From assembly GCA_000092065.1 (NCBI GenBank), contig CP000586.1: DNA of 64,000 bases; one strand, written 5' to 3'. The notes below the pieces were generated by a model. It saw only the letters and a program-made list of their open reading frames with translations, searched no databases and was not told where the DNA came from. Shown here piece after piece: positions 49,286 to 64,000 of the stretch. Origin of the DNA: Ostreococcus lucimarinus. Its lineage: Eukaryota. Made by a program: the position numbers and the translations under genes. Numbering within the stretch: the first letter of the stretch is position 1; each line of letters begins with the position of its first letter.

Positions 49286-49424
49286 CGCGCGCTGCTCTGC
49301 CGTCGCGCGCCGCTTTCGGCGGTGCCGATTGTGGATAGAGTGTCCCGCGCGCGCGCGATCGGCCGCACAGGGACGCGCGCGCGCGACGCGAGCGACTGGA
49401 ACCGGCGTAGAAACACCGCGAACA

Positions 49425-51098
49425 ATGTCCGTGACGCCCAGCGCGCGCGTGTGCGCGATGCTGAGCTCGAGGCTGACGCACGCGACGCTCGAAAGACGCG
49501 CGTCGAGCTTGAGGTTTTCCAAAGCCGCGAACGCGCGAAGAAACGCGCGCGGTGCGACGATCACGGCGAGCGGGTTGAACATCACGCCGCCGGTGAGCGA
49601 TGGGACGGTGCGCGTGCGGTTTGCGCCATCGCCGACGGGGTCTTTACACGTCGGTGGCGCGCGCACGGCGTTGTTTAATTACCTGTACGCGAAGAAGATG
49701 GGTGGTAAATTCGTGCTTCGAGTCGAGGATACGGATCAAGCGCGATCGACGCGCGCGAGCGAAGATAGCATGGTTGCCGATTTGAAATGGCTTGGGCTGG
49801 ATTGGGACGAAGGACCCGACGTCGGTGGGCCGTGTGGGCCGTACAGGCAGAGCGAGAGAGGTGAAATTTACAAGGCGCTCGCCGAGAAGCTCGTGGCGAG
49901 CGGACACGTGTACCCGTGCTTTTGCACGGATGAAGAGTTGGAAGCGATGAAGGCTGAGGCAGAGGAGAAGAAGCTTCCGCCGAAGTACATGGGGAAGTGG
50001 GCCACGGCGAGTGAGGCGGAGGTGAAGGAAATGATGGACAAGGGAGTTCCGTTTACGTATCGCTTCCGCGTGCCGGAGGGCGAACGCATTGAAATCGACG
50101 ACATGGTGCGGGGTAAGGTTGGTTGGGATACGAACACGCTCGGCGATTTCGTGGTGTTGCGCTCCAACGGTATGCCCGTGTACAACTTTTGCGTCGCCGT
50201 GGACGACGCCACCATGGGAATCACCCACGTGTTGCGCGCCGAGGAGCACTTGCCGAACACGCTTCGCCAGGCGCTCGTGTACAACGCCCTCGGCTTCCCG
50301 CTTCCGACGTTCGCGCACATGTCCCTCATTCTCGCCCCGGATCGTTCCAAGCTTTCCAAGCGCCACGGTGCGACATCGGTCGGGCAATTCAAGGATGAAG
50401 GCTACCTGAGCAAGACCATGGTCAACTATCTCTCACTCTTGGGTTGGAACGACGGCACCGAGCAAGAAATTTATGAGAAGGCAGAGCTCGAGAAGCTCTT
50501 TAGCGTCGAACGCATCAACAAATCGCCCGCGGTGTTCGACAAGGTGAAGTTGAACTGGATGAATGGTCAGCATCTTCGCTTGCTTCCGGACGCCGACGTA
50601 GAGGCACTCGTTGGTGAGGCGCTGGTGGCTTCGGACTTGTTGAAGGAATCCTCCGGCGCGACGGTGCAAGCCATCATTCCTCTCATCAAAGAATCCATCG
50701 AACTCGTCGAGGACGCCGTTCCGCAGGTGCAAGCCATGTTTGAGTTCCCATTGAAGGAAAACATGGGCGATGATGCGATGAAGAAGGTGCTTGATGACGA
50801 TTTTGAACCTATCGTCGACGCCATTGTCAAGGCGCACGCGAGCGGCGAACTCGCCGCGGCGGTGAAGGAAGGCACGGTGAAGCAATTCATCAACGCCACG
50901 GGCAAGGCCCTCGATCGTAAGGGAAAGAGACTTTTTATGCCTTTCCGCATTGCGCTTACCGGTCGTATGCAAGGTCCGGATGTCGGTGAAGTGCTCACGC
51001 TTCTCGACAAAGCTGCCGGCTCGAGCGACAAGATTGTGTCGCTCGACGACAGAGTCGCCGCCCTCAAGGCGGCTTTCCCAGCCGCTGTCGCAAACTAA
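49425..51098 (+). CDS. Glutamyl-tRNA synthetase, bacterial/organellar (discriminating or non-discriminating GluRS)
   Basis: Class I motifs (HIGH-type PSPTGSLHVGGARTALFNY; KMSKS-type LSKRHGATSV) and GluRS catalytic core; organellar leader before VRVRFAPSPTG. First ATG 49425. Confidence 0.85.
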   Translation: MSVTPSARVCAMLSSRLTHATLERRASSLRFSKAANARRNARGATITASGLNITPPVSDGTVRVRFAPSPTGSLHVGGARTALFNYLYAKKMGGKFVLRVEDTDQARSTRASEDSMVADLKWLGLDWDEGPDVGGPCGPYRQSERGEIYKALAEKLVASGHVYPCFCTDEELEAMKAEAEEKKLPPKYMGKWATASEAEVKEMMDKGVPFTYRFRVPEGERIEIDDMVRGKVGWDTNTLGDFVVLRSNGMPVYNFCVAVDDATMGITHVLRAEEHLPNTLRQALVYNALGFPLPTFAHMSLILAPDRSKLSKRHGATSVGQFKDEGYLSKTMVNYLSLLGWNDGTEQEIYEKAELEKLFSVERINKSPAVFDKVKLNWMNGQHLRLLPDADVEALVGEALVASDLLKESSGATVQAIIPLIKESIELVEDAVPQVQAMFEFPLKENMGDDAMKKVLDDDFEPIVDAIVKAHASGELAAAVKEGTVKQFINATGKALDRKGKRLFMPFRIALTGRMQGPDVGEVLTLLDKAAGSSDKIVSLDDRVAALKAAFPAAVAN

Positions 51099-51197: not shown

Positions 51198-51992
51198 TCA
51201 TTCTACCGAGAAAGAGTCGTCTTGAGAGAGTTCGGTATCGGTGGGGGTAGGATCGGCGACTGGCGTCGGTGCCGGATCCTTCTTGGGGTAAGCTCGGGGC
51301 TGGTTCGACGATTGCACTTTACTCGTGATATCGGTCAAAGCACCGATCGTGCTGTCGAAGATGGACGGGATATCAATGCCCGTGCCGCTTTCGATGTTTT
51401 CGAGAGTGTTCTTGAACTTTTCTCGGCTCTCCTCGAACGCCAAGTAGTTGTAGGTGAAGTAGAGCGTGTAAGCGATACCAATGGTTTCCAGCGCGACATC
51501 CGCGATACCCGGCAAGATGGCCACGGATAACAAAAAGGAGCCGGCGATGATGGCGTAGAAGCCAAGATCGGCTGTTTCCTTGAGCGACTTTGAGCTCGCC
51601 GAGCGTCGCACCGGGCGTTGAGCCGGCTTGCGCGCGAAAGGTTTCGGTTTCGGTTTGCTCGCTACCATTGGTTTGCGTCGCACGATCGGCTTCTTCGCCG
51701 CGATCGGCTTCTTCGCCGCGATCGGCTTCTTCGCCGCGATCGGCTTCTTCGCCGCGATCGGCTTCTTCGCCGCGAACGACGGCTTCTTCGCCGCGACGGG
51801 CTTCTTGACGAGCGGTTTCGCCTTGGCCGCGAACAGTGGCTTCTTCGTCGCGACGGGTTTCTTCGCGACGACCTTCGGCTTAGGCTTCGCCTTGGGCTTA
51901 GGCTTCGCCTTGGGCTTAGGTTTCGCCGCAACCTTCTTGGGCAACACGAACGTCGGCTTCTTCTTCTTCTGCGTGCCCGATCCCGCGTCCAT
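51198..51992 (-). CDS. CURT1: CURT1-like (CAAD-domain) thylakoid curvature protein with a long Lys/Pro/Ala-rich repetitive N-terminal extension
   Basis: C-terminal FYAIIAGSFLLSVAILPGIADVALETIGIAYTLYFTYNYLAFEESREKFKNTLENIES matches CURT1A-D (VPLLPKVMELVGLGYTGWFVYRYLLFKSSRKELAEDIESLKKKI). The N-terminal ~170 aa is (AAKKPI)n and KPKPKAKPK repeats. First ATG 51992. Confidence 0.7.
   Translation of the reverse strand: MDAGSGTQKKKKPTFVLPKKVAAKPKPKAKPKPKAKPKPKVVAKKPVATKKPLFAAKAKPLVKKPVAAKKPSFAAKKPIAAKKPIAAKKPIAAKKPIAAKKPIVRRKPMVASKPKPKPFARKPAQRPVRRSASSKSLKETADLGFYAIIAGSFLLSVAILPGIADVALETIGIAYTLYFTYNYLAFEESREKFKNTLENIESGTGIDIPSIFDSTIGALTDITSKVQSSNQPRAYPKKDPAPTPVADPTPTDTELSQDDSFSVE
51683..51790 (-). 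repeat. Perfect 18-nt tandem array (cgatcggcttcttcgccg on plus strand, encoding KKPIAA on minus strand), about 5 identical copies flanked by degenerate copies to about 51940
   Basis: Read directly from the plus strand; period 18 preserves the reading frame of the CURT1-like gene. Confidence 0.8.
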
Positions 51993-52379
51993 GTACCCCC
52001 GCACCGCCGCCTTCCTCTCCTCCGCCGCGGGACCGCCAAAGTTAAATACCGCGCTCGTCTGTCATCGCGCGCGTCCATCGTCAGTCCATCGTCTCATCGA
52101 ACGCGCGCGCCCTTCCCATCATCGCGTCTCCGCGTTCGTCCCGCCGCGTCCGCGTCCGATCCGTCCAACCGAATCGACGCATTCGCGATTCGCGCGCCCG
52201 CCTCGCCCGCGTCGAACCATCGAACGCGTTCGCGTCCTCGCGCGCGCGTCGCCGCCGCATCGCGCGCACCATCACGCCCCCCGCGCGTCGCGCGACGCGC
52301 TCGCGCGTCGCGCGCGGTCGTCGCGCGAGCGCATCCGTCGCCCGCGCGCGTCCGATGATTCCCATCGAACGCGTCGTCG

Positions 52380-52760
52380 TCGTCGTCGTCGTCATCGCCT
52401 CGCGTCCGTTCGCGTCGCGTCCGTCGAGATCTCGTCGCTCGCTCGATCGTCGATCGTCGTCGTCGGTCGACGCGAAGTCAGACGTCGTCGACGCGTCGCG
52501 CCGTCGCGTCGACGATCGACGATCGATCGAATTGAATTGAATCGTCGGTCGGTCGGTCGGTCGATCGATGTTCGCGTCGTCGAAAAATAAATCGACGCGT
52601 CGTCGATCGATTTTCGTATCGATCGACGCGTCGTCGATCGTTTCGAATCGACGTCGTCGATCGACGTCGTCGATCGAGCCATCGCGAGGGGGACCATCGC
52701 GCGTCGCGCGCGAATCCGCGACGACGACGACGCATCGCGCGGCGCGGATTCGCCGACGCG
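52380..52760. repeat. TCGA/CGTCG-rich low-complexity and short-repeat region upstream of the Myb gene, including (gtcg)5, repeated atcgacgcgtcgtcgatcg units and an 11-bp inverted repeat gcgaatccgcg/cgcggattcgc just before the ATG
   Basis: Read directly. Every long ORF across it (e.g. 52081..53586 minus) is Arg/Asp/Ser homopolymer-like and not credible coding. Confidence 0.5.
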
Positions 52761-53168: not shown

Positions 53169-53725
53169 GGCGTTGGAGCATGATTTTGAAGGATCCGGAA
53201 TTCGGTCGCGCGCTCGCGGCGCGTTCGAACGTTGATTTGAAGGATAAGTGGCGCGCGTCGACGACGCCGACGAAGACGAGGGCGCACAAACCGGGGCTCA
53301 CGCCGCCGTTGTCGCCGTTGGCGAAGTCTGTGGTTTTGAGTCCGCAAGCGCACAAGCAGGGTAAGCGCAAGTGGACGGACGCGGAAAACGCGGCGTTAGA
53401 AGCGGGTGTGCAAGAACACGGCGTCGGACAGTGGGCCGCAATCTTGAAAAATCCAAAGTACGCCCGCGCGCTCAGCGCGCGCTCAAACGTCGATTTGAAG
53501 GACAGGTACCGCTCGGCGAACACGCCCACGAAGTCTGGACGCCCGACATCGCCGATCGCTCCTGATGCGATTAAAACGTACCGCACGCCGGGTTACAAGC
53601 CGACCTCGCCTCGCTTCGCGTCGTCGCCGTACTCTTCGCCCCAGGTACGGTCTCCGCACGATCGCGTACGATCGCCGCCCATCGGTGAACTCCGAGACGA
53701 TAATAAAAGTTGCAGCATCATGTGA
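53169..53725 (+). CDS. Myb gene exon 3: end of Myb repeat 1, complete Myb repeat 2 ([51 protein letters not shown]), Pro/Ser-rich tail
   Basis: Two TRF/TRB-like Myb repeats with LKDKWR/LKDRYR ends; stop at 53725. Confidence 0.75.
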
Positions 53726-53768: not shown

Positions 53769-56700
53769 TTAATCGTGACTCGTCGCCATTTCGAACCACT
53801 GTCGCAACAAATCGCTTATCGTCGCCGGGAGCTGCGACACGTCTTGCACGAGGACGTAGAATGGAAACGGAAACGAGTCCAAATACTTTTTCATCACCGG
53901 TTTGCCTCCCGTGAATGACACACTTTGCATGTTCAGTAGACTGTTTTGGGGATTATCGAGCACGATGAACGCGACGAGTAACCCGCGCTGCGCACCAACT
54001 TCTCGCATGCACCTTCGCAAGGCTTCCTTTTCGTGAAATCGACCGTCGGCGATGATGAGCACGAGCTGCTGGAGCTTCGTGCCGCCGCCGCGAATTTGTT
54101 CTCGCGCGACGCTCAGTCGCGCAGCCATGGTTTCGAGGAGTTGAACCATTGGTCGATCGGCCAAGGTGTTGTCTTCCGCGAACGACAGCTTGCTCACGAG
54201 CGATGGGCCCTCTTGGTCGGTAAACGGCGCGCCGAGCGGATGCAGCGTGCGCACCGCGTTGGCCCCGGCGCCGAAGCCTACGACACCGATCTCTCCGACC
54301 TCTAAACGAGCCATGGCGCGCGCCAGGAGAACCATTGACTCAAGAGCGATGTGGCCGCAGTGGTTTTCTGCCATAGATCGCGAGTCATCGATGGCAAGCA
54401 TCACTTGATACTTGCGAGCCGAAGGTCTCGAACGTCTGAGCCAAATTTTGTCCTTTCTGAAATCGCTGGCAATGTAAGGAATAATCTTCCGCATGTTTAG
54501 TCGCTTGCCGGTTTTGTAATCCCCTTGAAGTCGACTTGCAAGCGTTGGCTCGAGAATCAGTCGAAGTTTCTCTGCAAGTTCAGCCGAAAGCGCGGTGGTG
54601 AGCTGCTCCAACTTCCGCCACAAGTTTTGCGCGTTGGCCTCGTTGCCCCGCTCTTTGGCTGACTTTTCACGCCATTGCGTAAGACTTTGCTCAGCCTCGA
54701 TGCGCGCGAGTTCGACGTCTTCCGGCGTGAGCTCGTGCACAACTTCACCTGCTCCACCTAGAGAAGTGTGTTCGAGCTGTAAAGCGATCGTCGACTCTTC
54801 ACCAGTTTCGCCTTCACCGCCGGCGACGAGCTCTCGCTCGGTCATCGTTTCATCTTCGTCGGCCTCTTCGCCATCGATCGCAGCAGTTTGTGCATCCGTC
54901 GATGCAATGTCTTTCTTCGGTTCGCTACTTTTACGCTGTCTCTTCATCGCGGCGCTAGCGCCGTCGTCTTCGCGCTCGTCGTCGTTGCCGGGACCTTGAT
55001 CGCCTTCATCAGTCGCGTCGACCCGAGAGTCTTGACGCATCTCCATGGGCTCGAGGCCTTCTTCGTCTTCATCCTCCGATTCTTCTGGCACGTCATTCAA
55101 ACTGTTCTTCGTTGCTTGTTCCTCCGTCGCGTTACCAAGCGTCTGAATACCCTTATTGTCTTTACCGTCTTCGTCATCCACTCCGCCTTTTTCCGCAGCT
55201 CGCTCGAACTCGTACTCGTCGCCTTCGCCACCGCCGTCGTCCCCGCCTTGGTCTCCTGCGGTATCGTTCTCAGCAGCGTCCCCAACGACATTCAAACGTT
55301 CGCGCCAGCTCTTCAACGCGTCACCGAGCGAACGATGCGGGTTCGCATCTTGCTGACGTTGCGGCGGGGGAGGCGTCTTCTTATCTCCATCGCTCGCGGG
55401 ACCGCCCGTCATCGGCGCGACCGTGCCTTCACCGCCGCTCGCGCCCGCACCAGTGCCTTCACCATCCGCACCGGCGCTCGGTATGTCGGTCGATGACTGT
55501 GGTAGGGGCAACTGTCTTCCATCGTTGCCTTCGTTGACGTCGGTATCCATCGCGCCATGCGCCTGTTGCTTCGTTTCTTCTTCTCCTTGACCATCAGATC
55601 CTTGCGCGTTGGCGCCCGCTTCACCGCCTTGACCTTGGGTTTCGTTGACGTCTTGATCGCCACCTCCCCCGTCACCTTGACCTTGCAGGCCGCCTTCTTC
55701 GCCGTCTTCGTCCATTGCGTCGTCCGCGGCGATGGCATCATCCTGGAGATGATCGGTGGCGCCTTCTTCTTCGTCGTCGGCTTGGGCGACCTCGTCGTCG
55801 TCCACGTCCATGACGTCGTCCGTGAGACCACCGTCGCCGTCTTCGTTCATCTCCCCATCCGCGTTTTCGTTTTGTTCATCGGCATTCACATCTTCAGGCG
55901 GTGCACCATCGAGTTCCTCGGCGTCTTCGTTTTGCATCGACTCATCGTTGGCGTCGTCTTCCGCGTCCTCGCCTTGTTCGTCTTCCTCTTCGAGTTTCAA
56001 GTCGTCGAGCTCAAACTCCTCAGGCTCGGGTAACGACGGGTTTTTTCCGTGATTCTCTTCGACTTCCTCCTCATTCTGCTTACCGTCATCGTTGGCGTCA
56101 GGAGCACCGGATTGATCGTTTTCTTTCGGTCGATCCTTCTCGTCTTCGCCGCTTTCTTCGCCTTGATCTGGATCTTTCGGCGGTCCGTCGTCGTCCTCCT
56201 CCGCCGCGCGCGTCTCAGTCTCCTGCTTTTCGTCCTGCTTCACGCTCGACCCTTTTTCGTACTTCTCCGGAGCCTCATTCTTCTCGTCATCTTTATCGTC
56301 TTCGTCGTTCCACATGCGTTCGTCGATGACGTCGCCGTCGTCGCCATCCTCACCCATTTCCTTCTCCATGTCCTCCCTGGGATCGTCTTCGTCTTCGTCG
56401 TCACCGCCCGCGTCGACGTCTTCCATGACACCCTCGAAGTCATTTTGCATCTCTATCCCGCCGTCCTCCTCTTCTTCGCCGCCGCCCTTGTCTTTATGCT
56501 CTTCCTCTTCCTTCTCGAGATCCTCCATGCCCAGGATTTGATCTTCGTTTTCAATTTCATCCGCGACGTCCTTCTCGCCTTCGCCCGCGCCCATGCCGGT
56601 ACCAGATTGATCGTCCATCATGCCACCACCGGCTTCACCGTCGGCTTCTTCAGGTGGAATACAGAACCCCTCCACGGATAAACCAAGGAATAGTGCGGTG

Positions 56701-59700
56701 AGTACGGACTCGAGCTTGCAGGAAGACTTGTGAAAGTTGATGTACTCAAAGAGAACGGTTCGCACGGCGCTTCGTAACAGGCCCAAAAGCGGAGCGACGG
56801 TACCCGCGCGCGCTGCGACAAAGTTTGACACATCTCGATCATCGATGGCGTGCGCTTCGTCGACAACAGATTTGACATCATTGACGACATTACGTACGGC
56901 GTGTACGATGTGCTCGAGTCGTTTCGGGTTCATAGCACCGCCCACCGCAGCTTCGTACGTCGTCATAGAGCCTTCGGCTTCTTCCTCCTCGTCTTCACCT
57001 TCTGCGACGATTTCACGTTTGATCATGATTGGTTTCGACGAAGCATCGACGCCTTGAACCCAAATCAAAGTCGATTGTACGACAGTTTCGATGTTTTCAC
57101 TCAGTTTTCCGATGCGCTTTGAAATAGACACGACGTCTCCGGCGACGTTTTCGCCCCCTGGCGAGACGCCGTTCGTGAAGTCCTTTTCAAATCTGGTAAC
57201 GTCCAAGTCCACAATGGAACGCAAGAAATCCCAGCCAGGCACCGCATTTGCACCATGCATTCCGATATCACCAGTGGTCAATCGTACTTCGGCTTCGACT
57301 TGCGCACTCGCAAGTAACTTCTTTACGCGCTTGAAGTCGTCGAAATTTGCCTGGATGGCGGCCACAGCGTCACTCGATGCGACGGCGTTCAATCGCCAAG
57401 GTTCCAATGACGGACGATCGTTGCCCACACGTATATCTACACTTTCTAGTGTACACGCGAGGAATGGCTCGAGACGCGCCCGGGCGCGGTGCGCCAGATC
57501 TTTGCATTCAGTTAAAGCCGTCACAACCGCGGCCGTAGTGGGTTTTACCTGCGACAGAGGCTCTGCCGCGGAAATCGCCCTGTTGAGTAAACTCACGTCG
57601 ACACACGCCGTCGCAAAACGATCGATGATATCGCGCTGTTCAATCAGCCATGATTCTGCAAACCGCTGGGATGGAAGATTTCCGTGCGCACTCAATGCGT
57701 TGAGCGACGAGTAAGCGATATCGATATCCGCCTCTGCTCCAGCGGCGGCGGAAATCGTAGACCTTTGCGTGCGCAAAATGTGTAACAAATGCTCACACGA
57801 TAGTGTCGCAATCTCCACTTCGCGACTCGTCAAGTCTGGATTCTGCGCCCCGCGCATAAGCCAGAGACGCTGAATTCGAGCCATTGAACGATAGTAGTAC
57901 TTGTCCGCCGCTCTAAAAGCATTGGTCGCGTCCTCGCCGAGGATGGCGAGGCATCGAGGTTCCTTCATTGCTTTCTCCATGAACCACATCGTCGCAGCGC
58001 GATACTCTACCGGCACAGCGCCTCGAGAGTGTTTAATTCCCATGGCTGGCAAAGTTTTGAGCAAGTCCTGAAAAGCCTTCTTCTTGATTGCCTTCTTCGC
58101 TGCCTTGTCGTCTCGAAGCGCATTCGCGCGCTTTGCGATTGTCACGGCAAAGTCATCGAGAGATTCAGCTCCGGCGGTACGCACGTCGTAACCATCTTCG
58201 CCGTTCAACGCTCGATCTAGAATAGTTCCCATGCGTTTCACCAGTGATGGAAGGCGCGCGCGGTAAGAGGTTTCATCGACATCAATCGCGGCTGGATGGT
58301 ATTCCTTTCGGATTTGTTGCGCCACTCGCGAAGACGTTTCGACCGCATTCTTCGTGCGAGCGCTCGCTTTAGCGCACGCTCCGTTCCATGCATCCCGCTG
58401 TAATCGTAACGATTCTAGTTCTGCTTGTCGCATGGTGTCGATTTCAGCTTGACGAGCGAGCTTGACGGCTTCGAGCTCCTCTTTCGATGGTTTCGCCGCA
58501 TTCGGAAGTATCGGAGTCTGAGTTTGTGTACCATCGTCGACAGACAACTCCTTGAAACCTGTTTGTGATGCAGCGGTCTCCAAGACTGGTAGTACTAGTC
58601 CATTGAGAGCGGTGTCAAACGCTCGAACGAACTTGTGCAATGATCGCTGATTCGCTTCGCCCTGGACCTTCATCGCGTGATAGCCTCGATCTTCCCATTT
58701 CGCGAGCTTGGCGTGATCTCGAAGTTTAATCTCGCATGGTTTGCGAATCGTCTCAATATGTTTATCGACGACGCTCGAAAACTGAGAGTAGTATCGCCAA
58801 ATGTTGTACAGAACTGCGCAAAGTGCGTCATCGTGGCTGCTGGTACTTGCACCTCGCGCCTTGCACGCGCGCGTTTCGACTTCCAACTCGGCGAAAAAGC
58901 ACCAAATCAATTCCAATCGCGTTTCAAACTCACCGATTGTCGAACCTTGAAGATATTCTTCCAGTGCAACGGTAAGACTTCGAATCTTCTCAACGTCAAC
59001 GTTGTGGATTTCATCTTCCGGAGCATCATCGCCAGACAAAGCGCGCGACTTCATCGAGCTGAGTAAACGATAAATGGCAAACCATGTTCGCTTGGCTCGA
59101 GATGCGTGTCTCTCGCTACAACGAGCGAGAAGCCGCGGCCAAGTACGAACTTCGCGCGCACGCCAACGAAGTGCGAGCTTTGCACATTCGTTGAGCTCAT
59201 TCTTAAGCGATGTGTGCTCTGCCGAAGACTCCTCCCAAATCTGCGCTCGAGCGAGAAGGAGCTCGATACCTGTCAAACCAGCCTTCACTGGGCCCAATAG
59301 CGGCAAAGAGAGCATTCGATCGCATAATTCGGCGAGTTGCGTCAAAAGAGGGTGTTCTGGCCATTCGTCGAGCAGTTGCGTCAGCCTTCGTCGCGCCGCC
59401 GCCACGGGAGGAACGATAAGCGCCATTTCTCCTGGGCATCCGCCGACGGTGAGCTCGTCGTCGAGCGCATCTGCCGCTGCGTCTTCATCTAGCTCGGCTT
59501 GACTTCTCTTCGTTCTCGCTCTCAGCGCTTCTTCTTCCTCTGGCGTCGCTTGCGATTCGTACGGTGACGTGCCAAGCGTATCAACCGAAAGCGCTGGGCG
59601 CGACACGGCGGAATACTCCAACGCCACGCGGAGGGAGTGCCCGAAGCGCGACGCATAATCGACGGCTACTGGAAGCGATAATTGACTCGCTTTCAAGACA

Positions 59701-62700
59701 GATATTCCTGTGTCATACGACCGCGCAAACTCGGACGCGCGTAATGCTTCATCGGTGTTTAAATTTCGCACGTATTTGCCATACTTGGTCAAACGCATTG
59801 ATTGAACAATCTTCTCCTGGGCGCTCAATGATTCCTCAGTCGAGTGCGCAGGCGCACCGCGAAGAGTGGCAAGAGCCGCGTAGTGAACGTTCACAAGCTC
59901 TTCAGCGAGTTCGCCTTCGAGGATGCCGGCTAAGCGTGCTGCGCGGGTGATGTCCACTTCGTCATCAACCTCTTGAGATTTTGGCTCATCTTCCACGCAA
60001 TCGTGCTCGAGCATCAGGGGCGCATCCGGCGCATCCTTGAAATCGGCGAAACCTGCGGCAAAATCCTTGAAAGCGATGCGATATGCGCGCTCCTCCGTCT
60101 CTTGGTCGTTCGCTTCCGTAGATTCATAGGAGCTTGGACCCTTGGTGGCTTGTTTGAATATTTCGGTGGCGAGCCTATCGGCCTCTGCGTCTTCTTCTCG
60201 ACAACTGTCGTAGAGCGCAGAAAACGCTGCAAAGCATTTGCTCAAACGTTGCCAACTCTTCATGCTCAGCGCACCTCCGCGACGAGCTTCGGACAGAGCA
60301 CTCGTAAGCGCAACGCGTAGCGCACCTAGCTCTAAATCGCCCGATTTCGGGTTGGACGGAAGATGCGCTGCCGCCGCATTCTCCGCACTACTGAGTGCTC
60401 GTAGCACTCGATCTTCGCTAAGCATCAGCGCTGCTGAACCTTCGTAGGCGGCGTTGACGACCGTCGGGAACGAAAACAATGCGACCGCGGCGGAAACTAT
60501 TTCGCCGTTATTTTTCATGCGCGCACGCGCGGCTTCGGCGGCGAGAGCGACACCACGGCGAATCTCGTACACCGCAAGTTGAAGCGGTTGCGTCATATCG
60601 CGGTACGACGAATACTCATCATCCAATAGCGAGCTCCACTGCGCGCTCGATCCGAGCCACGTCTCAGCTTCCATGATCGTGGTTTCATCTGGCTTGAGTG
60701 CAGAACACTTTTGCAGCAGCTGAAGCAGCCTCTGCGCAGAGGCCAAACCTTCGCGGAACTGTACGACGACACGGCGAAGCGCGGCCCATCGTGACGGCGT
60801 CGGGCGCGGAAGGGCTAGAGTCCTTAATCTCTCGCGCTCAGACGAAAGACGTTCATCAAGTTGTACGCAGTCAACTAAACTCTGAGCGTCGCCGCTCGGC
60901 GCGGATGGCGTGCGTTGATGCCAAGTAATTACACCGATGAGTGGCTGGACTTCGCGCTCGAGCGTCGTGTCCAAATGCCAGAGCTCTGTCCGCACGGTGA
61001 CAGCTGGATCGGATAACCCGGCTGGAAGCAGAAGATTGAGACGAAGCACACCAAGAAGCGCCCACGCAGCGCCGCGACGCCCCTTGTCGCGCGCGCCAGA
61101 ATCACCGGAAAGGGTTGCACTTTTCACAACATCTTTGTGCGATGCTCCCTCGCACACCGCGACAATCAAAGGCTCGAGTACGGCTTCACGCATAGCTGCG
61201 AGCGGCGAGTACGCATCACACAGATGTGCGCATGCTGTTTTAAGCATTTTAATTGTGCGCGCAGCTTCGTTCGCCGTTTGCATCGCACCATCGCTGACCA
61301 ACTTCATCATCGCATCGACGGCATTCACCAGTGCGGTAGCGCTTTCGCCACCGTCTTCGAGCAACGTCACATGGCTGAGCAGCATTTGTGCGGTTAGCCC
61401 TGCAAGCGAAATCCAATCTTCGATTGATGCATGCACGGGGTTTGCGCGCTCGAAGCGTAAAAGCCTTGATGCCATGCGCAACTGTACCATACGAGGCAAA
61501 CGCTCGGCGCAGCCAATATTGGCGTCCGTCACAATGCCGGACACGAACGCCGTCGCCGTGGCGCGTTCAAATCGAATCGGTCCCGAAGCGGATGCCCAAA
61601 ACGATGACATTGTACTTTCGGACGACGCGTCAGCCTTAGCTTTGGGTAACAGCGCGCGAGGAACGCCGTCAATGGCGTTATCCCATTGCGATGCGTGCCA
61701 ACGAAGCCACATATCGTGCAGATGTTCAGCTAGCCCTTGTGACTTTTCAGACGCGTTGGCGCCGGACGCATCACCGTATAACCAGAGCAAATGACGATGC
61801 GCTACAAAGTCAGCGGGTGATCTTGGGGATGCTGCGATACCGAACGTGACTCCTTGTGCTGCGAGCATCGCTTCGCTTTTACTCATGACCTTTCCATCAC
61901 GTTCGGTCATTAATCGTGCGGTCAGTTGGCTGAGAAGCTTTGACTGCGATGAAATTGACCAAAGCTCGGCGATTGGATTCAGCGTGGAGTGTAGCCGCGC
62001 AACAGCTTCCCACTTTAACGCCCAGGCAGGAAAACCAAGCGCTGGGTATGCCGGTACGGCTACGTCAGCGATTGCCCCGAGTTTCCATGGCTCATCTTTA
62101 TCGATAGACTTCAAAAGCTCTTGCGCCGGTAAATCAGAGATATGCCGTCGCTCGCGCAACTCGCTGTTTTCGTCGTCCATTGATATTTCCATGGCAACAC
62201 CGGATGTTTTCGCTCGATCAGCGCATTTCAAACCTAGTAGCCTCGGGATTTCACCGGCTTCGACTTCCATTTCGGAGCTCGTCGAGATATCTGCGTTTGC
62301 CTGGATGTGCGTCCACGCGAAGAAGCATAGTCCTTCCAATGCAGCAGATCGTAAGCCTACTCCGGCACCGAGTGCCGCGCACGACGCCGCAAATGTAGAT
62401 TCGCTCAGAGACGTTTCACCTCCGAATCTTTGCCTCGTCAATAAATGATCAAGATCTGATGCAAACGTCGAGCGCACTTGCAAGGCGTGACAAATATCAC
62501 GTACGTTCTTTTCCATATCGAATAGTGTCGACGTCTTAGGCAGGGACGGTCTGCCGGCGTACTTCCACAAAAGAGGATCGATGGGTTTACCGGGTGGGAT
62601 TTCCAGCGCTTCATCCATAATTGCGGCAGCGCTTTGCAGTTGCTCCGTGATTAGGCTGCACGAGTCAACACCGACGCTCCAATTTTCCAACACGACGGCA

Positions 62701-64000
62701 AACGCTTCGCGAACTTTAGTCCACGCCACGGCGATGGTTTCCACGACATCTGCCGACGCCACGCATCCAGAAGCCGGATCAATCTTGAAACTGTCACCTC
62801 TCGTGGTCATGGTAAGCTGTTCCAAACGAATACGCCAATCTTGAAATTCTCGAAGCAGATTGAAATGCTCGCGAGGAAGCGATTCGCCGATTGTGCATAC
62901 AAGTCGAAGAAGGTCGTCTTCAAAGCGAGCGCAACTGCCCAAGAGCACACTCGCAACGTCAACGCAGGCGTGTACGGGCGCCGCACGCGCACGCGCCACT
63001 TGATCTTGACTGCGCCAAATAGACAATTGCAGACACGAAGGCGCGCCGAGGTTGACAGTCTCGTTCACGTGCCGCACGTGGAGCTCTGTTTTTGCCTTTT
63101 GCAACACGCCTCTTACGATGAGCGACCGCAATGATGAATCAGCGACATGAACGGACTTGACAAATGAATGTTTAGCGACGATATCCAAGGCGTTTAAAAC
63201 GGCCGAGAGTTCGTCGCTAACGGTAGTCATAGAACTTACGTTGCTCACCCGTGCGAATGCAGAAAGTCTCGCAACAATTCCGTTGAAGTTTTGCGAATCA
63301 TCATTCGCTATGGCGACATCCAAAATTCGTTGCGCGCTCGCGTTGAGCGTGACACTTAATTCAGAGATACACTCGGCGTCGGTTTCGTCCAAAGTTGAGT
63401 CGAATCCAATGCGTCGCATCGATGAAGCCACTGGTAACGCGCCAGCGATTAGCGGCGAAAGTGAATGCACGTCACCCGTGCTCGCCAATTGACCTGCAAC
63501 CTGAGCAATCACACCCTCGAACAATGCGGTTTGCGCACGATGCTTACTCTCAACATCGTGTGCATTGTAGCTCAGAGTCTCGTTCATGATGCTGATATTT
63601 GGCCAGCACATTGGTTGCAACATGACGGAACGCGCCGTAGCATCGTCTGCAGCGTGCGCCCCGGTTGAGATGTTGTGCAAAGATGAAAACGCGTGTTCAC
63701 ACGCAGCCTTGAATGCATCGCGCGCGGCTTCGCGTATGACTGCACTTGATTCACCTCTCATGTATACTTGACTCCAACTCGTCGACAATGCAACTCGCAC
63801 ATCGTGCCCACGTGATAGAAGTTCGAGCGTCAACGTTGCCCATTCCACAATGTCTCGAGAAGAAATCCCCTTCATACCAGGTTTGGATACAAAATTCCCG
63901 AGATTCACGTGCGCAGCTATCATGATTGTTTGAACAAACCCACCTGGAATTCCGATAGATTCGAGAATTTTGGCGATATCGTTCTCTACCGTTGGCGTTG
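53769..64000 (-). CDS. MDN1: Midasin (MDN1/Rea1), C-terminal ~3400 codons: helical linker, long Asp/Glu-rich region, C-terminal VWA/MIDAS domain; N-terminal AAA ring lies beyond the window end
   Basis: C-terminal MIDAS (YQVMLAIDDSRSMAENHCG ... LVLIIADGRFHEKEALRRCMRE), about 600-residue D/E-rich segment, enormous single ORF. The frame remains open upstream of the track M at 63923 through position 64000, so the gene continues off-window. Confidence 0.85.
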   Translation of the reverse strand, partial: TPTVENDIAKILESIGIPGGFVQTIMIAAHVNLGNFVSKPGMKGISSRDIVEWATLTLELLSRGHDVRVALSTSWSQVYMRGESSAVIREAARDAFKAACEHAFSSLHNISTGAHAADDATARSVMLQPMCWPNISIMNETLSYNAHDVESKHRAQTALFEGVIAQVAGQLASTGDVHSLSPLIAGALPVASSMRRIGFDSTLDETDAECISELSVTLNASAQRILDVAIANDDSQNFNGIVARLSAFARVSNVSSMTTVSDELSAVLNALDIVAKHSFVKSVHVADSSLRSLIVRGVLQKAKTELHVRHVNETVNLGAPSCLQLSIWRSQDQVARARAAPVHACVDVASVLLGSCARFEDDLLRLVCTIGESLPREHFNLLREFQDWRIRLEQLTMTTRGDSFKIDPASGCVASADVVETIAVAWTKVREAFAVVLENWSVGVDSCSLITEQLQSAAAIMDEALEIPPGKPIDPLLWKYAGRPSLPKTSTLFDMEKNVRDICHALQVRSTFASDLDHLLTRQRFGGETSLSESTFAASCAALGAGVGLRSAALEGLCFFAWTHIQANADISTSSEMEVEAGEIPRLLGLKCADRAKTSGVAMEISMDDENSELRERRHISDLPAQELLKSIDKDEPWKLGAIADVAVPAYPALGFPAWALKWEAVARLHSTLNPIAELWSISSQSKLLSQLTARLMTERDGKVMSKSEAMLAAQGVTFGIAASPRSPADFVAHRHLLWLYGDASGANASEKSQGLAEHLHDMWLRWHASQWDNAIDGVPRALLPKAKADASSESTMSSFWASASGPIRFERATATAFVSGIVTDANIGCAERLPRMVQLRMASRLLRFERANPVHASIEDWISLAGLTAQMLLSHVTLLEDGGESATALVNAVDAMMKLVSDGAMQTANEAARTIKMLKTACAHLCDAYSPLAAMREAVLEPLIVAVCEGASHKDVVKSATLSGDSGARDKGRRGAAWALLGVLRLNLLLPAGLSDPAVTVRTELWHLDTTLEREVQPLIGVITWHQRTPSAPSGDAQSLVDCVQLDERLSSERERLRTLALPRPTPSRWAALRRVVVQFREGLASAQRLLQLLQKCSALKPDETTIMEAETWLGSSAQWSSLLDDEYSSYRDMTQPLQLAVYEIRRGVALAAEAARARMKNNGEIVSAAVALFSFPTVVNAAYEGSAALMLSEDRVLRALSSAENAAAAHLPSNPKSGDLELGALRVALTSALSEARRGGALSMKSWQRLSKCFAAFSALYDSCREEDAEADRLATEIFKQATKGPSSYESTEANDQETEERAYRIAFKDFAAGFADFKDAPDAPLMLEHDCVEDEPKSQEVDDEVDITRAARLAGILEGELAEELVNVHYAALATLRGAPAHSTEESLSAQEKIVQSMRLTKYGKYVRNLNTDEALRASEFARSYDTGISVLKASQLSLPVAVDYASRFGHSLRVALEYSAVSRPALSVDTLGTSPYESQATPEEEEALRARTKRSQAELDEDAAADALDDELTVGGCPGEMALIVPPVAAARRRLTQLLDEWPEHPLLTQLAELCDRMLSLPLLGPVKAGLTGIELLLARAQIWEESSAEHTSLKNELNECAKLALRWRAREVRTWPRLLARCSERHASRAKRTWFAIYRLLSSMKSRALSGDDAPEDEIHNVDVEKIRSLTVALEEYLQGSTIGEFETRLELIWCFFAELEVETRACKARGASTSSHDDALCAVLYNIWRYYSQFSSVVDKHIETIRKPCEIKLRDHAKLAKWEDRGYHAMKVQGEANQRSLHKFVRAFDTALNGLVLPVLETAASQTGFKELSVDDGTQTQTPILPNAAKPSKEELEAVKLARQAEIDTMRQAELESLRLQRDAWNGACAKASARTKNAVETSSRVAQQIRKEYHPAAIDVDETSYRARLPSLVKRMGTILDRALNGEDGYDVRTAGAESLDDFAVTIAKRANALRDDKAAKKAIKKKAFQDLLKTLPAMGIKHSRGAVPVEYRAATMWFMEKAMKEPRCLAILGEDATNAFRAADKYYYRSMARIQRLWLMRGAQNPDLTSREVEIATLSCEHLLHILRTQRSTISAAAGAEADIDIAYSSLNALSAHGNLPSQRFAESWLIEQRDIIDRFATACVDVSLLNRAISAAEPLSQVKPTTAAVVTALTECKDLAHRARARLEPFLACTLESVDIRVGNDRPSLEPWRLNAVASSDAVAAIQANFDDFKRVKKLLASAQVEAEVRLTTGDIGMHGANAVPGWDFLRSIVDLDVTRFEKDFTNGVSPGGENVAGDVVSISKRIGKLSENIETVVQSTLIWVQGVDASSKPIMIKREIVAEGEDEEEEAEGSMTTYEAAVGGAMNPKRLEHIVHAVRNVVNDVKSVVDEAHAIDDRDVSNFVAARAGTVAPLLGLLRSAVRTVLFEYINFHKSSCKLESVLTALFLGLSVEGFCIPPEEADGEAGGGMMDDQSGTGMGAGEGEKDVADEIENEDQILGMEDLEKEEEEHKDKGGGEEEEDGGIEMQNDFEGVMEDVDAGGDDEDEDDPREDMEKEMGEDGDDGDVIDERMWNDEDDKDDEKNEAPEKYEKGSSVKQDEKQETETRAAEEDDDGPPKDPDQGEESGEDEKDRPKENDQSGAPDANDDGKQNEEEVEENHGKNPSLPEPEEFELDDLKLEEEDEQGEDAEDDANDESMQNEDAEELDGAPPEDVNADEQNENADGEMNEDGDGGLTDDVMDVDDDEVAQADDEEEGATDHLQDDAIAADDAMDEDGEEGGLQGQGDGGGGDQDVNETQGQGGEAGANAQGSDGQGEEETKQQAHGAMDTDVNEGNDGRQLPLPQSSTDIPSAGADGEGTGAGASGGEGTVAPMTGGPASDGDKKTPPPPQRQQDANPHRSLGDALKSWRERLNVVGDAAENDTAGDQGGDDGGGEGDEYEFERAAEKGGVDDEDGKDNKGIQTLGNATEEQATKNSLNDVPEESEDEDEEGLEPMEMRQDSRVDATDEGDQGPGNDDEREDDGASAAMKRQRKSSEPKKDIASTDAQTAAIDGEEADEDETMTERELVAGGEGETGEESTIALQLEHTSLGGAGEVVHELTPEDVELARIEAEQSLTQWREKSAKERGNEANAQNLWRKLEQLTTALSAELAEKLRLILEPTLASRLQGDYKTGKRLNMRKIIPYIASDFRKDKIWLRRSRPSARKYQVMLAIDDSRSMAENHCGHIALESMVLLARAMARLEVGEIGVVGFGAGANAVRTLHPLGAPFTDQEGPSLVSKLSFAEDNTLADRPMVQLLETMAARLSVAREQIRGGGTKLQQLVLIIADGRFHEKEALRRCMREVGAQRGLLVAFIVLDNPQNSLLNMQSVSFTGGKPVMKKYLDSFPFPFYVLVQDVSQLPATISDLLRQWFEMATSHD

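What the first reader, a model, noticed from the sequence alone, without database searches (positions are those of the whole stretch)
51198..51992. CURT1-type thylakoid curvature protein fused to a perfectly repeated Lys-rich, histone-H1-tail-like N-terminal extension
The C-terminal 90 residues are an unmistakable CURT1/CAAD membrane module (two TM helices plus amphipathic helix). The preceding ~170 residues are (AAKKPI)n and KPKPKAKPK repeats. At least five 18-nt units (cgatcggcttcttcgccg on the plus strand) are identical at the nucleotide level, which implies very recent expansion or ongoing concerted evolution. Canonical CURT1 proteins have short N-termini. A poly-cationic tail of this kind resembles DNA- or RNA-binding histone H1/AKP tails. 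It could tether thylakoid margins to the nucleoid or to acidic lipids, or tune grana curvature electrostatically.
Basis: partly seen in the sequence, partly recalled or inferred. Interest (0 to 1): 0.6.

Follow-up and report, generated by a model that had tools for sequence, protein, structure and literature searches.

The report
Thylakoid-anchor protein with a polylysine tail

Summary
The repeats and the CAAD-like module are real, but the gene model and the family assignment need correcting.

**Gene model.** The ATG at 51992 is an internal Met. The gene has two exons: exon 1 at 52395..52270, a 211-nt intron, and exon 2 at 52058..51198, giving a 328-aa precursor. Exon 1 encodes an Arg/Thr/Ala-rich presequence that looks like a transit peptide. 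Transcripts of three related species show the same junction.

**Family.** The membrane module is homologous to CAAD/CURT1 only from the inter-helix loop through TM2 and the following helix. Pfam scores it 30.5 bits against a cutoff of 30.7, whereas canonical CURT1 proteins score about 98 bits. It lacks the N-terminal amphipathic helix of CURT1. The protein belongs to a small family, 33 hits among 1.84 billion representatives, with two paralog groups. One group includes Micromonas pusilla XP_003061946.1.

**Tail.** Every full-length member examined has a basic tail of 100–210 residues (net +28 to +50; no Asp/Glu at all in most type-1 tails) and a conserved N-terminal motif. The tail is therefore ancestral, not a new fusion.

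**Repeats.** The repeats turn over quickly. The window has five exact 18-nt units, while environmental contigs of the same species have 3, 5 or at least 7. Sister species use different repeat units.

**Function (inferred).** A stromal polycation tethered to the thylakoid, most likely binding plastid nucleic acid. Binding to acidic membrane surfaces is a close rival.

The parts
52270..52395 (-). Exon 1: 42 codons, MTTTTTTTRSMGIIGRARATDALARRPRATRERVARRAGGVM. A chloroplast-transit-peptide-like presequence (24% R, 21% T, 17% A, no K).
   Evidence: Translation is. It is in phase with a GTGCGC donor at 52269. Equivalent exon-1 peptides in six orthologs all end at GT donors. The junction is confirmed in relatives by transcript-derived sequences P0096 (MMETSP), P0042 (Tara metatranscriptome) and L016/P0024. 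In haplotype L015 the second ATG is GTG, so the upstream ATG at 52395 is the likely start.
52059..52269 (-). Intron, 211 nt, phase 0: GTGCGC ... branch-point-like GGACTGAC ... GACAG.
   Evidence: Sequence is. The branch point ACTGAC/ACTAAC plus a CAG acceptor sits at the same codon position in all 7 orthologous loci. The homologous intron is absent from transcript contig L016 when aligned to genomic L009.
51198..52058 (-). Exon 2: 286 codons plus stop. It holds the mature N-terminal motif, the Lys-rich tail, the CAAD-like hairpin, two further helices and an acidic C-tail.
   Evidence: Translation is.
51966..52058 (-). Conserved N-terminal module of the mature protein: TSAVFNFGG...KAAVRGYMDAGSGTQ. 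The pattern is A-x-F-x-F/K ... K-x-x-V-[KR]-x-[YFLM].
   Evidence: It aligns across type-1 orthologs and the type-2 paralog group, including M. pusilla XP_003061946.1.
51588..51971 (-). Polycationic tail: 128 aa, 32% K, 19.5% A, 19% P, 0 D/E, net +47, predicted coil.
   Evidence: Composition is. AlphaFold2 predicts coil, at low confidence. Tail length, charge and near-absence of acidic residues are conserved in 15 family members.
51683..51772 (-). Five nucleotide-identical 18-nt units encoding (AAKKPI)5. The degenerate array extends to about 51866.
   Evidence: Copy number is 3, 5 or at least 7 in environmental contigs of the same species.
51872..51927 (-). Second 18-nt array encoding (KPKPKA)3.
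   Evidence: The array is 11 or 17 residues long in conspecific contigs.
51279..51587 (-). CAAD-like membrane module, precursor residues 200-302. It comprises TM1 (about 205-227, LGFYAIIAGSFLLSVAILPGI), a short loop, TM2 (about 231-250, ALETIGIAYTLYFTYNYLAF), the helix EESREKFKNTLENIES, the helix IPSIFDSTIGALTDITSKV and a conserved YPKK.
   Evidence: Pfam CAAD scores 30.5 bits, E 3.3e-7. hhalign to canonical CURT1-like sequences gives 98.1% and to the type-2 paralogs 99.9% over 100 columns. Four helices appear in both AlphaFold2 models, at low pLDDT.
51198..51278 (-). Acidic Pro/Thr/Asp-rich C-terminal tail (26 aa, net -7) plus the stop codon.

Best explanation
This is a nuclear, two-exon gene for a plastid-targeted thylakoid membrane protein. 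It belongs to a small family of green picoalgae (prasinophytes) that branches off the CAAD/CURT1 superfamily.

Shown here:
- Exon 1 encodes an Arg/Thr/Ala-rich presequence.
- The mature protein starts with a conserved roughly 30-residue motif.
- A 128-residue acid-free Lys/Ala/Pro tail follows, then a two-helix CAAD-type hairpin, two further helices and a short acidic end.
- The tail's length and charge are conserved across two paralog groups, while its repeat units are replaced quickly.
- Repeat copy number differs between environmental contigs of the same species.

Inferred:
- The presequence directs plastid import, and the hairpin inserts in the thylakoid as in CURT1/CurT, with both ends in the stroma. 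A +47 segment would also be retained on the stromal side by the positive-inside rule.
- The tail is a disordered polycation up to about 40 nm long that works through charge and length rather than a fold. Slippage can therefore remodel it freely.
- Its most likely ligand is plastid nucleic acid: nucleoid DNA, or RNA and ribosomes. The protein would then tether nucleic acid to the thylakoid membrane.
- The conserved N-terminal motif at the far end of the tail is probably a separate docking site for an unknown partner.
For: Gene model:
- The open frame and the conserved QT[KRS]A.F[NG]F motif follow a branch point and CAG acceptor in 7 loci.
- Phase-0 exon-1 candidates with GT donors exist in six of them; L008 is too short upstream.
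- The junction is seen in transcript-derived sequences of relatives: L016 versus L009, MMETSP P0096 and Tara metatranscriptome P0042.

Membrane anchor:
- Pfam CAAD hit and hhalign 98.1% to CURT1-like sequences.
- One strongly hydrophobic segment (TM1) precedes a less hydrophobic TM2 candidate that aligns to the TM2 region of canonical CURT1.
- PMC12462475 describes the CurT/CURT1 architecture.
- PMC4893482 concerns CAAD as the membrane anchor of cyanobacterial aminoacyl-tRNA synthetases.

Tail under selection for charge and length:
- Tails are 103-209 aa with net +28 to +50.
- They have 0 D/E in 7 of 9 type-1 tails and 8 or fewer in all others.
- Repeat units differ even between sister species whose membrane domains are 93% identical: AAKKPI, AAKKPLI and a 17-aa unit.

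Nucleic-acid ligand (analogy only):
- The K/A/P composition and AAKKP/KPKAKPK motifs match histone H1 C-terminal domains and bacterial H1-like DNA-binding proteins. This comparison rests on my own knowledge.
Against: - No localisation, binding or expression data exist for any family member. No paper on it was found.
- No spliced transcript of the window's own species was found.
- Transit-peptide character is judged from composition and from homologous transcripts, not from a predictor.
- Type-1 tails contain 18-31% Ile/Leu/Met/Val/Phe and F-x-F or FSFG-like motifs. H1 tails have few such residues. The pattern fits basic-hydrophobic membrane-binding segments at least as well.
- Both structure models have pLDDT of about 47, so topology rests on homology and hydropathy.
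Confidence: 0.4

Rival explanations
1. Membrane adhesive or curvature amplifier. The stromal polycation, with its regularly spaced hydrophobic residues and N-terminal Phe-rich tip, binds the acidic (SQDG/PG) surface of the same or a neighbouring thylakoid, or of the envelope. It would glue membranes together as myelin basic protein or the MARCKS effector domain do. Alternatively, crowding and charge repulsion would add convex curvature at the margins next to a CURT1-type hairpin.
For: - The K-K-P-hydrophobic periodicity gives 18-31% ILMVF in type-1 tails.
- F-x-F, LFSFG and FFGKK motifs occur in lysine-rich context in both paralog groups.
- The anchor is homologous to a known curvature protein.
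- An acidic C-tail on the same protein could pair with neighbouring tails.
- Cation-driven thylakoid stacking is established biophysics (my own knowledge).
Against: - The Pro content of 10-19% and the Ala-rich AAKKP motifs are typical of DNA-binding H1-like tails rather than of known lipid-binding polybasic segments, which are much shorter.
- There is no direct test.
- A net charge of +47 is far more than membrane adsorption needs.
Confidence: 0.3
2. Ribosome or mRNA docking site. The basic tail recruits plastid ribosomes or mRNAs to thylakoid biogenesis zones. The analogy is with the basic tails of Oxa1/YidC/Alb3 and the basic repeats of ER p180, and it echoes CAAD-anchored aminoacyl-tRNA synthetases in cyanobacteria.
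For: - CAAD is a modular thylakoid anchor for translation factors in cyanobacteria (PMC4893482; PMC11500504 was listed).
- The tail is a tethered polycation.
- The gene lies next to the organellar GluRS gene, and this arrangement is conserved. That is only suggestive.
Against: - Known ribosome-binding tails are short (about 30-90 aa), helical and contain acidic residues. This tail is Pro-rich and acid-free.
- Synteny in compact genomes is weak evidence.
- This is a sub-case of nucleic-acid binding and cannot be separated from it in silico.
Confidence: 0.12
3. Ordinary CURT1 paralog whose N-terminus has filled with neutral low-complexity repeats that have no function of their own.
For: - Repeats are nucleotide-identical, differ in copy number between contigs and are replaced between sister species. 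Neutral minisatellites behave this way.
Against: - Tail length, net charge and near-total exclusion of Asp/Glu are maintained across two paralog groups and many species.
- A conserved motif sits at the tail's distal end.
- The membrane module itself is divergent from CURT1 and lacks its amphipathic helix.
Confidence: 0.1
4. The first reader's gene model, or the prokaryote-style models. Either translation starts at ATG 51992 with no presequence, or it starts downstream of the repeats as in the database entry P0001 (GTG-initiated, 161 aa), so the tail is not part of the protein.
For: - ATG 51992 is the first ATG of the contiguous ORF.
- Automated callers produced short models such as P0001, P0002 and P0008.
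Against: - The short models begin right after 100-N scaffold gaps inside the repeat array, or at internal Met/Val codons.
- The frame and motif are conserved upstream of ATG 51992, ending at a conserved acceptor.
- Transcript-derived full-length ORFs of relatives include the presequence, the motif and the tail.
Confidence: 0.03

Closest known systems
CURT1 / CurT (CURVATURE THYLAKOID 1; Pfam CAAD PF14159)
   Same: - Homologous loop, TM2 and following helix...PGIADVALETIGIAYTLYFTYNYLAFEESREKFKNTLE here versus ...PLVPNLLELVGIAYSLWFVYRYLLFKPDREELKKNL in P0047. hhalign gives 98.1%.
- Two-helix hairpin followed by a soluble helix.
- A plastid presequence.
   Different: - Only about half of the CAAD model matches, at about 30 bits against about 98 bits for canonical members.
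- The N-terminal amphipathic helix described for CurT/CURT1 (PMC12462475) is missing.
- The mature protein is about 30 kDa, not about 11-15 kDa.
- It has a 128-aa polycationic tail, an extra C-terminal helix with a TG[IL][DN] motif, YPKK and an acidic end.
- Canonical CURT1 genes exist separately in Micromonas (PMC10735309).
Type-2 Lys-rich CAAD paralogs, e.g. Micromonas pusilla CCMP1545 MICPUCDRAFT_51674 (XP_003061946.1) and UniRef100_A0A7S0SD70 ('CAAD domain-containing protein')
   Same: - Same architecture: presequence, FFGKK-type start, K-x-x-V-K/R-x-Y/L motif, a 120-160-aa K/A/P tail and the same hairpin plus TG[IL][ND] helix.
- hhalign 99.9%, E 8e-31 over 100 columns.
   Different: - The type-2 C-terminus is a long Ala/Glu/Lys helix-like region instead of YPKK plus an acidic tail.
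- Type-2 tails carry LFSFG and KYTIKKTAG motifs.
- Type-2 proteins are also uncharacterised.
Histone H1 C-terminal domain and bacterial H1-like proteins (Pseudomonas AlgP, Chlamydia Hc2, mycobacterial HupB tail)
   Same: K/A/P-dominated, acid-poor, repeat-built disordered polycations with AAKKP/KPKAKPK-type motifs. Repeat number evolves fast. This comparison is from my own knowledge; composition is.
   Different: - No winged-helix or HU globular domain. Pfam finds only CAAD.
- The protein is membrane-anchored.
- Type-1 tails contain more Ile/Val/Met/Leu/Phe.
- DNA binding is untested.
Plastid nucleoid-membrane anchors of land plants (PEND, MFP1, TCP34, pTAC16; reviewed in PMC4154389)
   Same: The proposed role is the same: a membrane-anchored protein holding plastid DNA at a membrane.
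   Different: There is no sequence relationship, and those proteins use bZIP-like, coiled-coil or TPR modules. The analogy is functional and hypothetical.
Cyanobacterial CAAD-bearing aminoacyl-tRNA synthetases (PMC4893482)
   Same: CAAD is used as a modular thylakoid anchor carrying a soluble cargo on the cytoplasmic or stromal side.
   Different: The cargo there is an enzyme and the CAAD is inserted or appended. Here the cargo is a low-complexity polycation.
Polybasic membrane binders (MARCKS effector domain, myelin basic protein)
   Same: Lys-rich disordered segments with interspersed Phe or other hydrophobic residues. FSF-type motifs occur in the paralogs.
   Different: Those segments are shorter or less Pro/Ala-rich and lack a transmembrane anchor. 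No homology.

Membership tests
CURT1/CurT (canonical) | Full-length match to Pfam CAAD (PF14159) above the gathering score | tested here: inconclusive
   The window protein scores 30.5 bits against a cutoff of 30.7, over model positions 30-80 of 85. Other family members score 15.9-34.2 bits over partial stretches of the model. Canonical P0041 and P0047 score 97.7 and 98.1 bits over positions 2-85. Homology of the matched half is solid: hhalign 98.1%, E 7.5e-14.
CURT1/CurT (canonical) | [quoted passage not shown] | tested here: not met
   CAAD model positions 1-29 are unmatched. The hhalign alignment starts at the loop before TM2. The sequence before TM1 is Lys/Pro/Arg-rich and predicted coil.
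CURT1/CurT (canonical) | Two transmembrane helices forming a hairpin, followed by a soluble C-terminal helix | tested here: met
   A hydrophobic segment spans precursor residues 205-233, with the TM2 homolog at 231-250. Both AlphaFold2 models contain four helices, but at pLDDT of about 47.
CURT1/CurT (canonical) | Small protein with a short stromal N-terminus | tested here: not met
   About 157 residues lie between the exon junction and the membrane module. Canonical P0041 and P0047 are 159 and 166 aa in total, including the transit peptide.
CURT1/CurT (canonical) | Localisation to curved thylakoid margins, oligomerisation and membrane tubulation | not testable with these tools
   Requires microscopy and biochemistry.
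Lys-rich CAAD family of green picoalgae (defined here; types 1 and 2) | Presequence, then the A-x-F-x-[FK] ... K-x-x-V-[KR]-x-[YFLM] motif, then an acid-poor K/A/P tail of at least 100 aa, then the hairpin with AG.FLL...LP and [YF]..Y motifs and the TG[IL][DN] helix | tested here: met
   Conserved synteny with GluRS and the midasin-like gene marks the type-1 loci as orthologs.
Linker histone H1 | Globular winged-helix domain (Pfam Linker_histone) | tested here: not met
   The Pfam scan at E up to 1 returns only CAAD.
Linker histone H1 | K/A/P-rich, acid-poor C-terminal-domain-like composition | tested here: met
   32% K, 19.5% A, 19% P and 0 D/E over 128 aa. This is resemblance in composition only. 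No PDB sequence matches the tail.
Nuclear-encoded plastid protein | N-terminal transit peptide | tested here: inconclusive
   Exon 1 peptides in six of the seven orthologous loci are Met/Ser/Thr/Ala/Arg-rich with few acidic residues and no Lys, and they are present in transcripts of relatives. No targeting predictor or experiment was available.

The most novel reading that the evidence does not exclude
Green picoalgae, which lack the land-plant nucleoid anchors, use a dedicated CURT1-derived membrane hairpin with a histone-H1-like tail to fasten plastid DNA to thylakoid membranes. Given the reported link between CurT/CURT1 and FtsZ, this could couple nucleoid partition to thylakoid and chloroplast division in cells that have a single chloroplast. 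The fast-evolving repeat number would set tether length and charge and may be a target of selection in natural populations.
Probability: 0.25. Interest if true: 0.7.

Novelty: new variant of a known kind. Interest (0 to 1): 0.45.

Why it matters
How plastid nucleoids and the translation machinery are attached to thylakoids in green algae is unknown, because the known anchors (PEND, MFP1, TCP34) are land-plant proteins. How picoalgae without grana organise their few thylakoids is equally open. This family offers a concrete candidate in genetically tractable organisms, namely a thylakoid anchor carrying a net charge of about +30 to +50.

It also shows that the CAAD hairpin has been reused in eukaryotes as a modular anchor, as it was in cyanobacterial tRNA synthetases.

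There are practical consequences too:
- The gene is easily mis-annotated. The first exon is missed and starts get called inside or after the repeats.
- The repeat array breaks short-read assemblies.
- The array would be a useful length-polymorphic population marker.

Tried and rejected
- **TATA box.** I first read TATTTAA at about 52045 as a TATA box supporting ATG 51992. It is coding sequence (V-F-N of the conserved motif), so I rejected that reading.
- **Intron-less start.** P0006's 'MSAQTRAF' start suggested an intron-less gene. That ATG lies in the polypyrimidine/acceptor region of the homologous intron, so it is a gene-caller artefact.
- **Exact look-up.** Neither the 264-aa nor the 268-aa ORF is in the protein collection.
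- **Word-indexed profile search.** It returned only orthologs. The exhaustive search was needed to reach the paralogs.
- **Spliced junction of this species.** A search of JGI contigs for the exact spliced junction gave 0 hits. The second scan returned only genomic contigs, which were useful for repeat counts.
- **Structure prediction.** Models of exon 2 and of the membrane module alone both had pLDDT of about 47. I did not run a fold search because the matches would be meaningless.
- **PDB sequence searches.** Neither the tail nor the domain profile gave a significant hit.
- **Literature.** Searches for CURT1 with Ostreococcus, CURT1 with lysine-rich, CAAD in green algae, and thylakoid-nucleoid anchors found nothing on this family. 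The Micromonas paper that names CURT1 genes does not discuss tails.
- **Organism.** Source names do not give a species for the window. It looks like a Mamiellophyceae-type genome (about 60% GC, compact, ACTGAC branch points), but this was not established.
- **Plus-strand ORFs.** The ORFs across the repeats (for example 51628..52590) are by-products of GC-rich repeats. Only the minus-strand product is conserved.
Full report
**1. The observation**

On the minus strand an open frame runs from ATG 51992 to the stop at 51198-51200, giving 264 aa.
- Tandem Repeats Finder reports an 18-nt array at 51683-51806, 6.7 copies at 91% match, with degenerate continuation to 51866. A second 18-nt array lies at 51872-51927.
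- Exactly five tandem copies of CGATCGGCTTCTTCGCCG occupy 51683-51772. About 0.06 matches are expected by chance.
- On the coding strand the two arrays encode (AAKKPI)5 and (KPKPKA)3.
- The only Pfam family found is CAAD (PF14159). It scores 30.5 bits, just under the 30.7-bit gathering cutoff, and covers only model positions 30-80 of 85.

The repeats and a CAAD-like module are therefore real. 'Unmistakable CURT1', 'C-terminal 90 residues' and '~170 residues' are imprecise. The basic extension is about 135 residues.

**2. The gene model is different**

Homologs from metagenomes lie in the same gene neighbourhood. They are convergent with an organellar GluRS gene, and a midasin-like AAA gene lies upstream in the loci with enough upstream sequence; an Spt5 gene was identified beyond GluRS in L001-L003. 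They are therefore orthologs.

In the window and six orthologous loci the frame stays open upstream of the 'MDAG' methionine. It runs through a conserved peptide, QT[KRS]A.F[NG]F. That peptide is immediately preceded by a branch-point-like ACTGAC/ACTAAC, a pyrimidine stretch and CAG, always at the same codon boundary.

Upstream, six of the seven loci have an ATG-initiated exon ending in phase 0 at a GT[AG][CA]G donor; L008 has too little upstream sequence. Introns are 211-369 nt. Each exon encodes 33-46 residues rich in Met, Thr, Ser, Ala and Arg.

Three independent transcript-derived sequences from relatives show exactly the predicted junctions:
- The JGI contig L016 (= P0024) aligns to genomic L009 in two blocks and skips 2272-2640.
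- The MMETSP transcript ORF P0096 reads ...ARPQRNVM|TKAIFGFG, as predicted for L001.
- The Tara metatranscriptome ORF P0042 reads ...GRDVE|TKAMFNF, as predicted for L004.

For the window the resulting model is:

| Feature | Coordinates (minus strand) | Note |
|---|---|---|
| Exon 1 | 52395..52270 | MTTTTTTTRSMGIIGRARATDALARRPRATRERVARRAGGVM |
| Intron | 52269..52059 | 211 nt, GTGCGC...GGACTGAC...GACAG |
| Exon 2 | 52058..51198 | 286 codons plus stop |
| Precursor | — | 328 aa |

A conspecific haplotype (L015) has GTG in place of the second in-frame ATG, which favours the ATG at 52395 as the start.

I did not find a spliced contig from this exact species, so for the window the model rests on comparative evidence.

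The presequence has 24% Arg and no Lys, whereas the tail has 32% Lys and 5% Arg. That sharp switch fits a cleavable targeting peptide followed by a functionally different domain.

**3. What the protein looks like**

After the presequence come five regions:

| Region | Description |
|---|---|
| N-terminal module | About 30 residues, TSAVFNFGG...KAAVRGYMDAGSGTQ |
| Tail | 128 residues; 32% K, 19.5% A, 19% P, no Asp/Glu, net +47 |
| Hairpin | TM1 LGFYAIIAGSFLLSVAILPGI and TM2 ALETIGIAYTLYFTYNYLAF |
| Two helices | EESREKFKNTLENIES and IPSIFDSTIGALTDITSKV, then a conserved YPKK |
| C-terminal end | 26 residues, Pro/Thr/Asp-rich, net -7 |

AlphaFold2 models were low-confidence, with pLDDT of about 47. 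They agree on a coil for the tail and four helices for the C-terminal module. I did not run fold searches on such models.

**4. Family placement**

An exhaustive profile search with the membrane module found only 33 proteins at E ≤ 1e-3 among 1.84 billion representatives. They fall into three sets.

- **Type 1.** These are the window's orthologs. Tails are built from different units: KKPIV, SKKKPVV, KKVVAKKPMMAT and others.
- **Type 2.** This paralog group has the same overall architecture but an Ala/Glu/Lys-rich C-terminus. It includes Micromonas pusilla CCMP1545 MICPUCDRAFT_51674 (XP_003061946.1, 'predicted protein') and UniRef100_A0A7S0SD70 ('CAAD domain-containing protein').
- **Canonical CURT1-like proteins.** A few short proteins of 159-215 aa appear at E of about 1e-5 to 1e-3.

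The key comparisons are:

| Comparison | Result |
|---|---|
| Type 1 vs type 2 (hhalign) | 99.9%, 100 columns |
| Type 1 vs canonical CURT1-like (hhalign) | 98.1%, 43 columns only (loop, TM2, next helix) |
| Pfam CAAD, canonical proteins | about 98 bits, full length |
| Pfam CAAD, Lys-rich family | 16-34 bits, partial model only |

The N-terminal amphipathic helix that characterises CurT/CURT1 (PMC12462475) has no counterpart here. Micromonas also has separately named CURT1A-C genes (PMC10735309).

The protein is thus a member of the CAAD superfamily and a relative of CURT1, but not a canonical CURT1.

**5. The tail is ancestral; its repeats are not**

Across 15 full-length family members the tail is 103-209 residues with 21-31% Lys and net +28 to +50. 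It has 0 Asp/Glu in seven of nine type-1 proteins. The N-terminal motif aligns across both paralog groups. The extension therefore predates the type-1/type-2 split.

The repeat units, in contrast, are young.
- In 12 further environmental contigs, conspecific sequences carry 3 AAKKPI units (7 contigs) or 5 (L023, as in the window).
- The KPK array is 11 or 17 residues long.
- Four of five other scaffolds have 100-N gaps exactly inside the AAKKPI array, two of them with at least 7 exact units on the two sides of the gap; the fifth (L012) is gapped further upstream.
- A sister species with a 93% identical membrane module uses a 21-nt AAKKPLI unit 4-5 times. A third uses a 17-residue unit three times.

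One caveat applies. Short-read assemblers can collapse such arrays, so some of the 3-versus-5 differences may be technical. The accompanying substitutions in the KPK array argue that several real haplotypes exist.

**6. Mechanism**

Shown here:
- the architecture of the protein;
- conservation of tail charge and length despite sequence turnover;
- a conserved motif at the distal end of the tail.

Inferred:
- The presequence directs plastid import.
- The hairpin inserts in the thylakoid as in CURT1/CurT. In cyanobacterial synthetases the CAAD is a thylakoid anchor (PMC4893482).
- The tail stays on the stromal side.

Such a tethered, acid-free polycation has to interact with polyanions. Its K/A/P make-up and AAKKP/KPKAKPK motifs are those of histone H1 C-terminal domains and bacterial H1-like DNA-binding proteins (my own knowledge). 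My preferred reading is therefore a thylakoid-nucleic-acid tether, binding nucleoid DNA or possibly RNA and ribosomes.

The main rival is binding to acidic thylakoid lipids or surfaces, giving membrane adhesion or crowding-driven curvature. It is favoured by two observations:
- the regular hydrophobic residues, 18-31% ILMVF in type-1 tails;
- the F-x-F and FSFG-like motifs.

A purely neutral low-complexity expansion is unlikely given the conservation. None of these readings can be decided in silico.

**7. Novelty**

No paper on this family was found. Database entries are 'hypothetical', 'predicted' or 'CAAD domain-containing'.

It is a new variant of a known kind: a CURT1-related thylakoid anchor carrying a polycationic disordered domain. 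Interest is moderate. It gives a testable candidate for thylakoid-nucleoid attachment or membrane adhesion in the smallest green algae, but the function is so far only inferred.

Noticed in passing
window 49329..51098 (+): The convergent neighbour is an organellar, bacterial-type glutamyl-tRNA synthetase with its own presequence. The CAAD-gene/GluRS pairing is conserved in the orthologous loci with enough downstream sequence to tell. This is curious because CAAD was first defined as a domain appended to cyanobacterial aminoacyl-tRNA synthetases. It is probably plain synteny.
   Followed up: partly
window 53769..63923 (-) and 53180..53725 (+): Upstream lie a very large ORF (at least 3384 aa) and a 181-aa ORF. 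In the conspecific loci the large one is a 4648-aa midasin-like AAA protein (AAA_5, AAA_lid_7), and the small one has a weak Myb DNA-binding hit.
   Followed up: no
L011-L015 (conspecific marine metagenome scaffolds): All five scaffolds carry a 100-N gap. In four it falls inside the AAKKPI repeat array, and in L012 it removes the promoter, exon 1 and the start of exon 2. These gaps explain the truncated database protein P0001, which a gene caller started at an internal GTG.
   Followed up: yes
window 52368..52392 (-), exon 1: An (ACG)n microsatellite encodes a poly-Thr run (TTTTTTT) in the presequence. Relatives have comparable Thr runs of different length, for example nine Thr in L009. This may be a second length-variable coding repeat in the same gene.
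   Followed up: no
P0027 (338 aa): Its first roughly 240 residues look bacterial, while its last roughly 100 are identical to the C-terminus of the type-1 protein P0017, starting in mid-hairpin. This is most likely a chimeric metagenome contig or gene call, not a real fusion.
   Followed up: no
P0039 (413 aa): This is a more divergent type-1-like member. It has a Ser-rich presequence, an Asp run just before the KPKVKSYLDAGKK motif, and a 209-residue tail containing 8 acidic residues. It may represent a lower-GC genus.
   Followed up: no
window 51618..52590 (+): Long plus-strand ORFs of 246 and 320 aa run antisense through the repeats and the intron. Their products are Arg/Ser- or Phe/Gly/Ala-rich repeats, and they look like by-products of GC-rich repetitive sequence.
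   Followed up: partly
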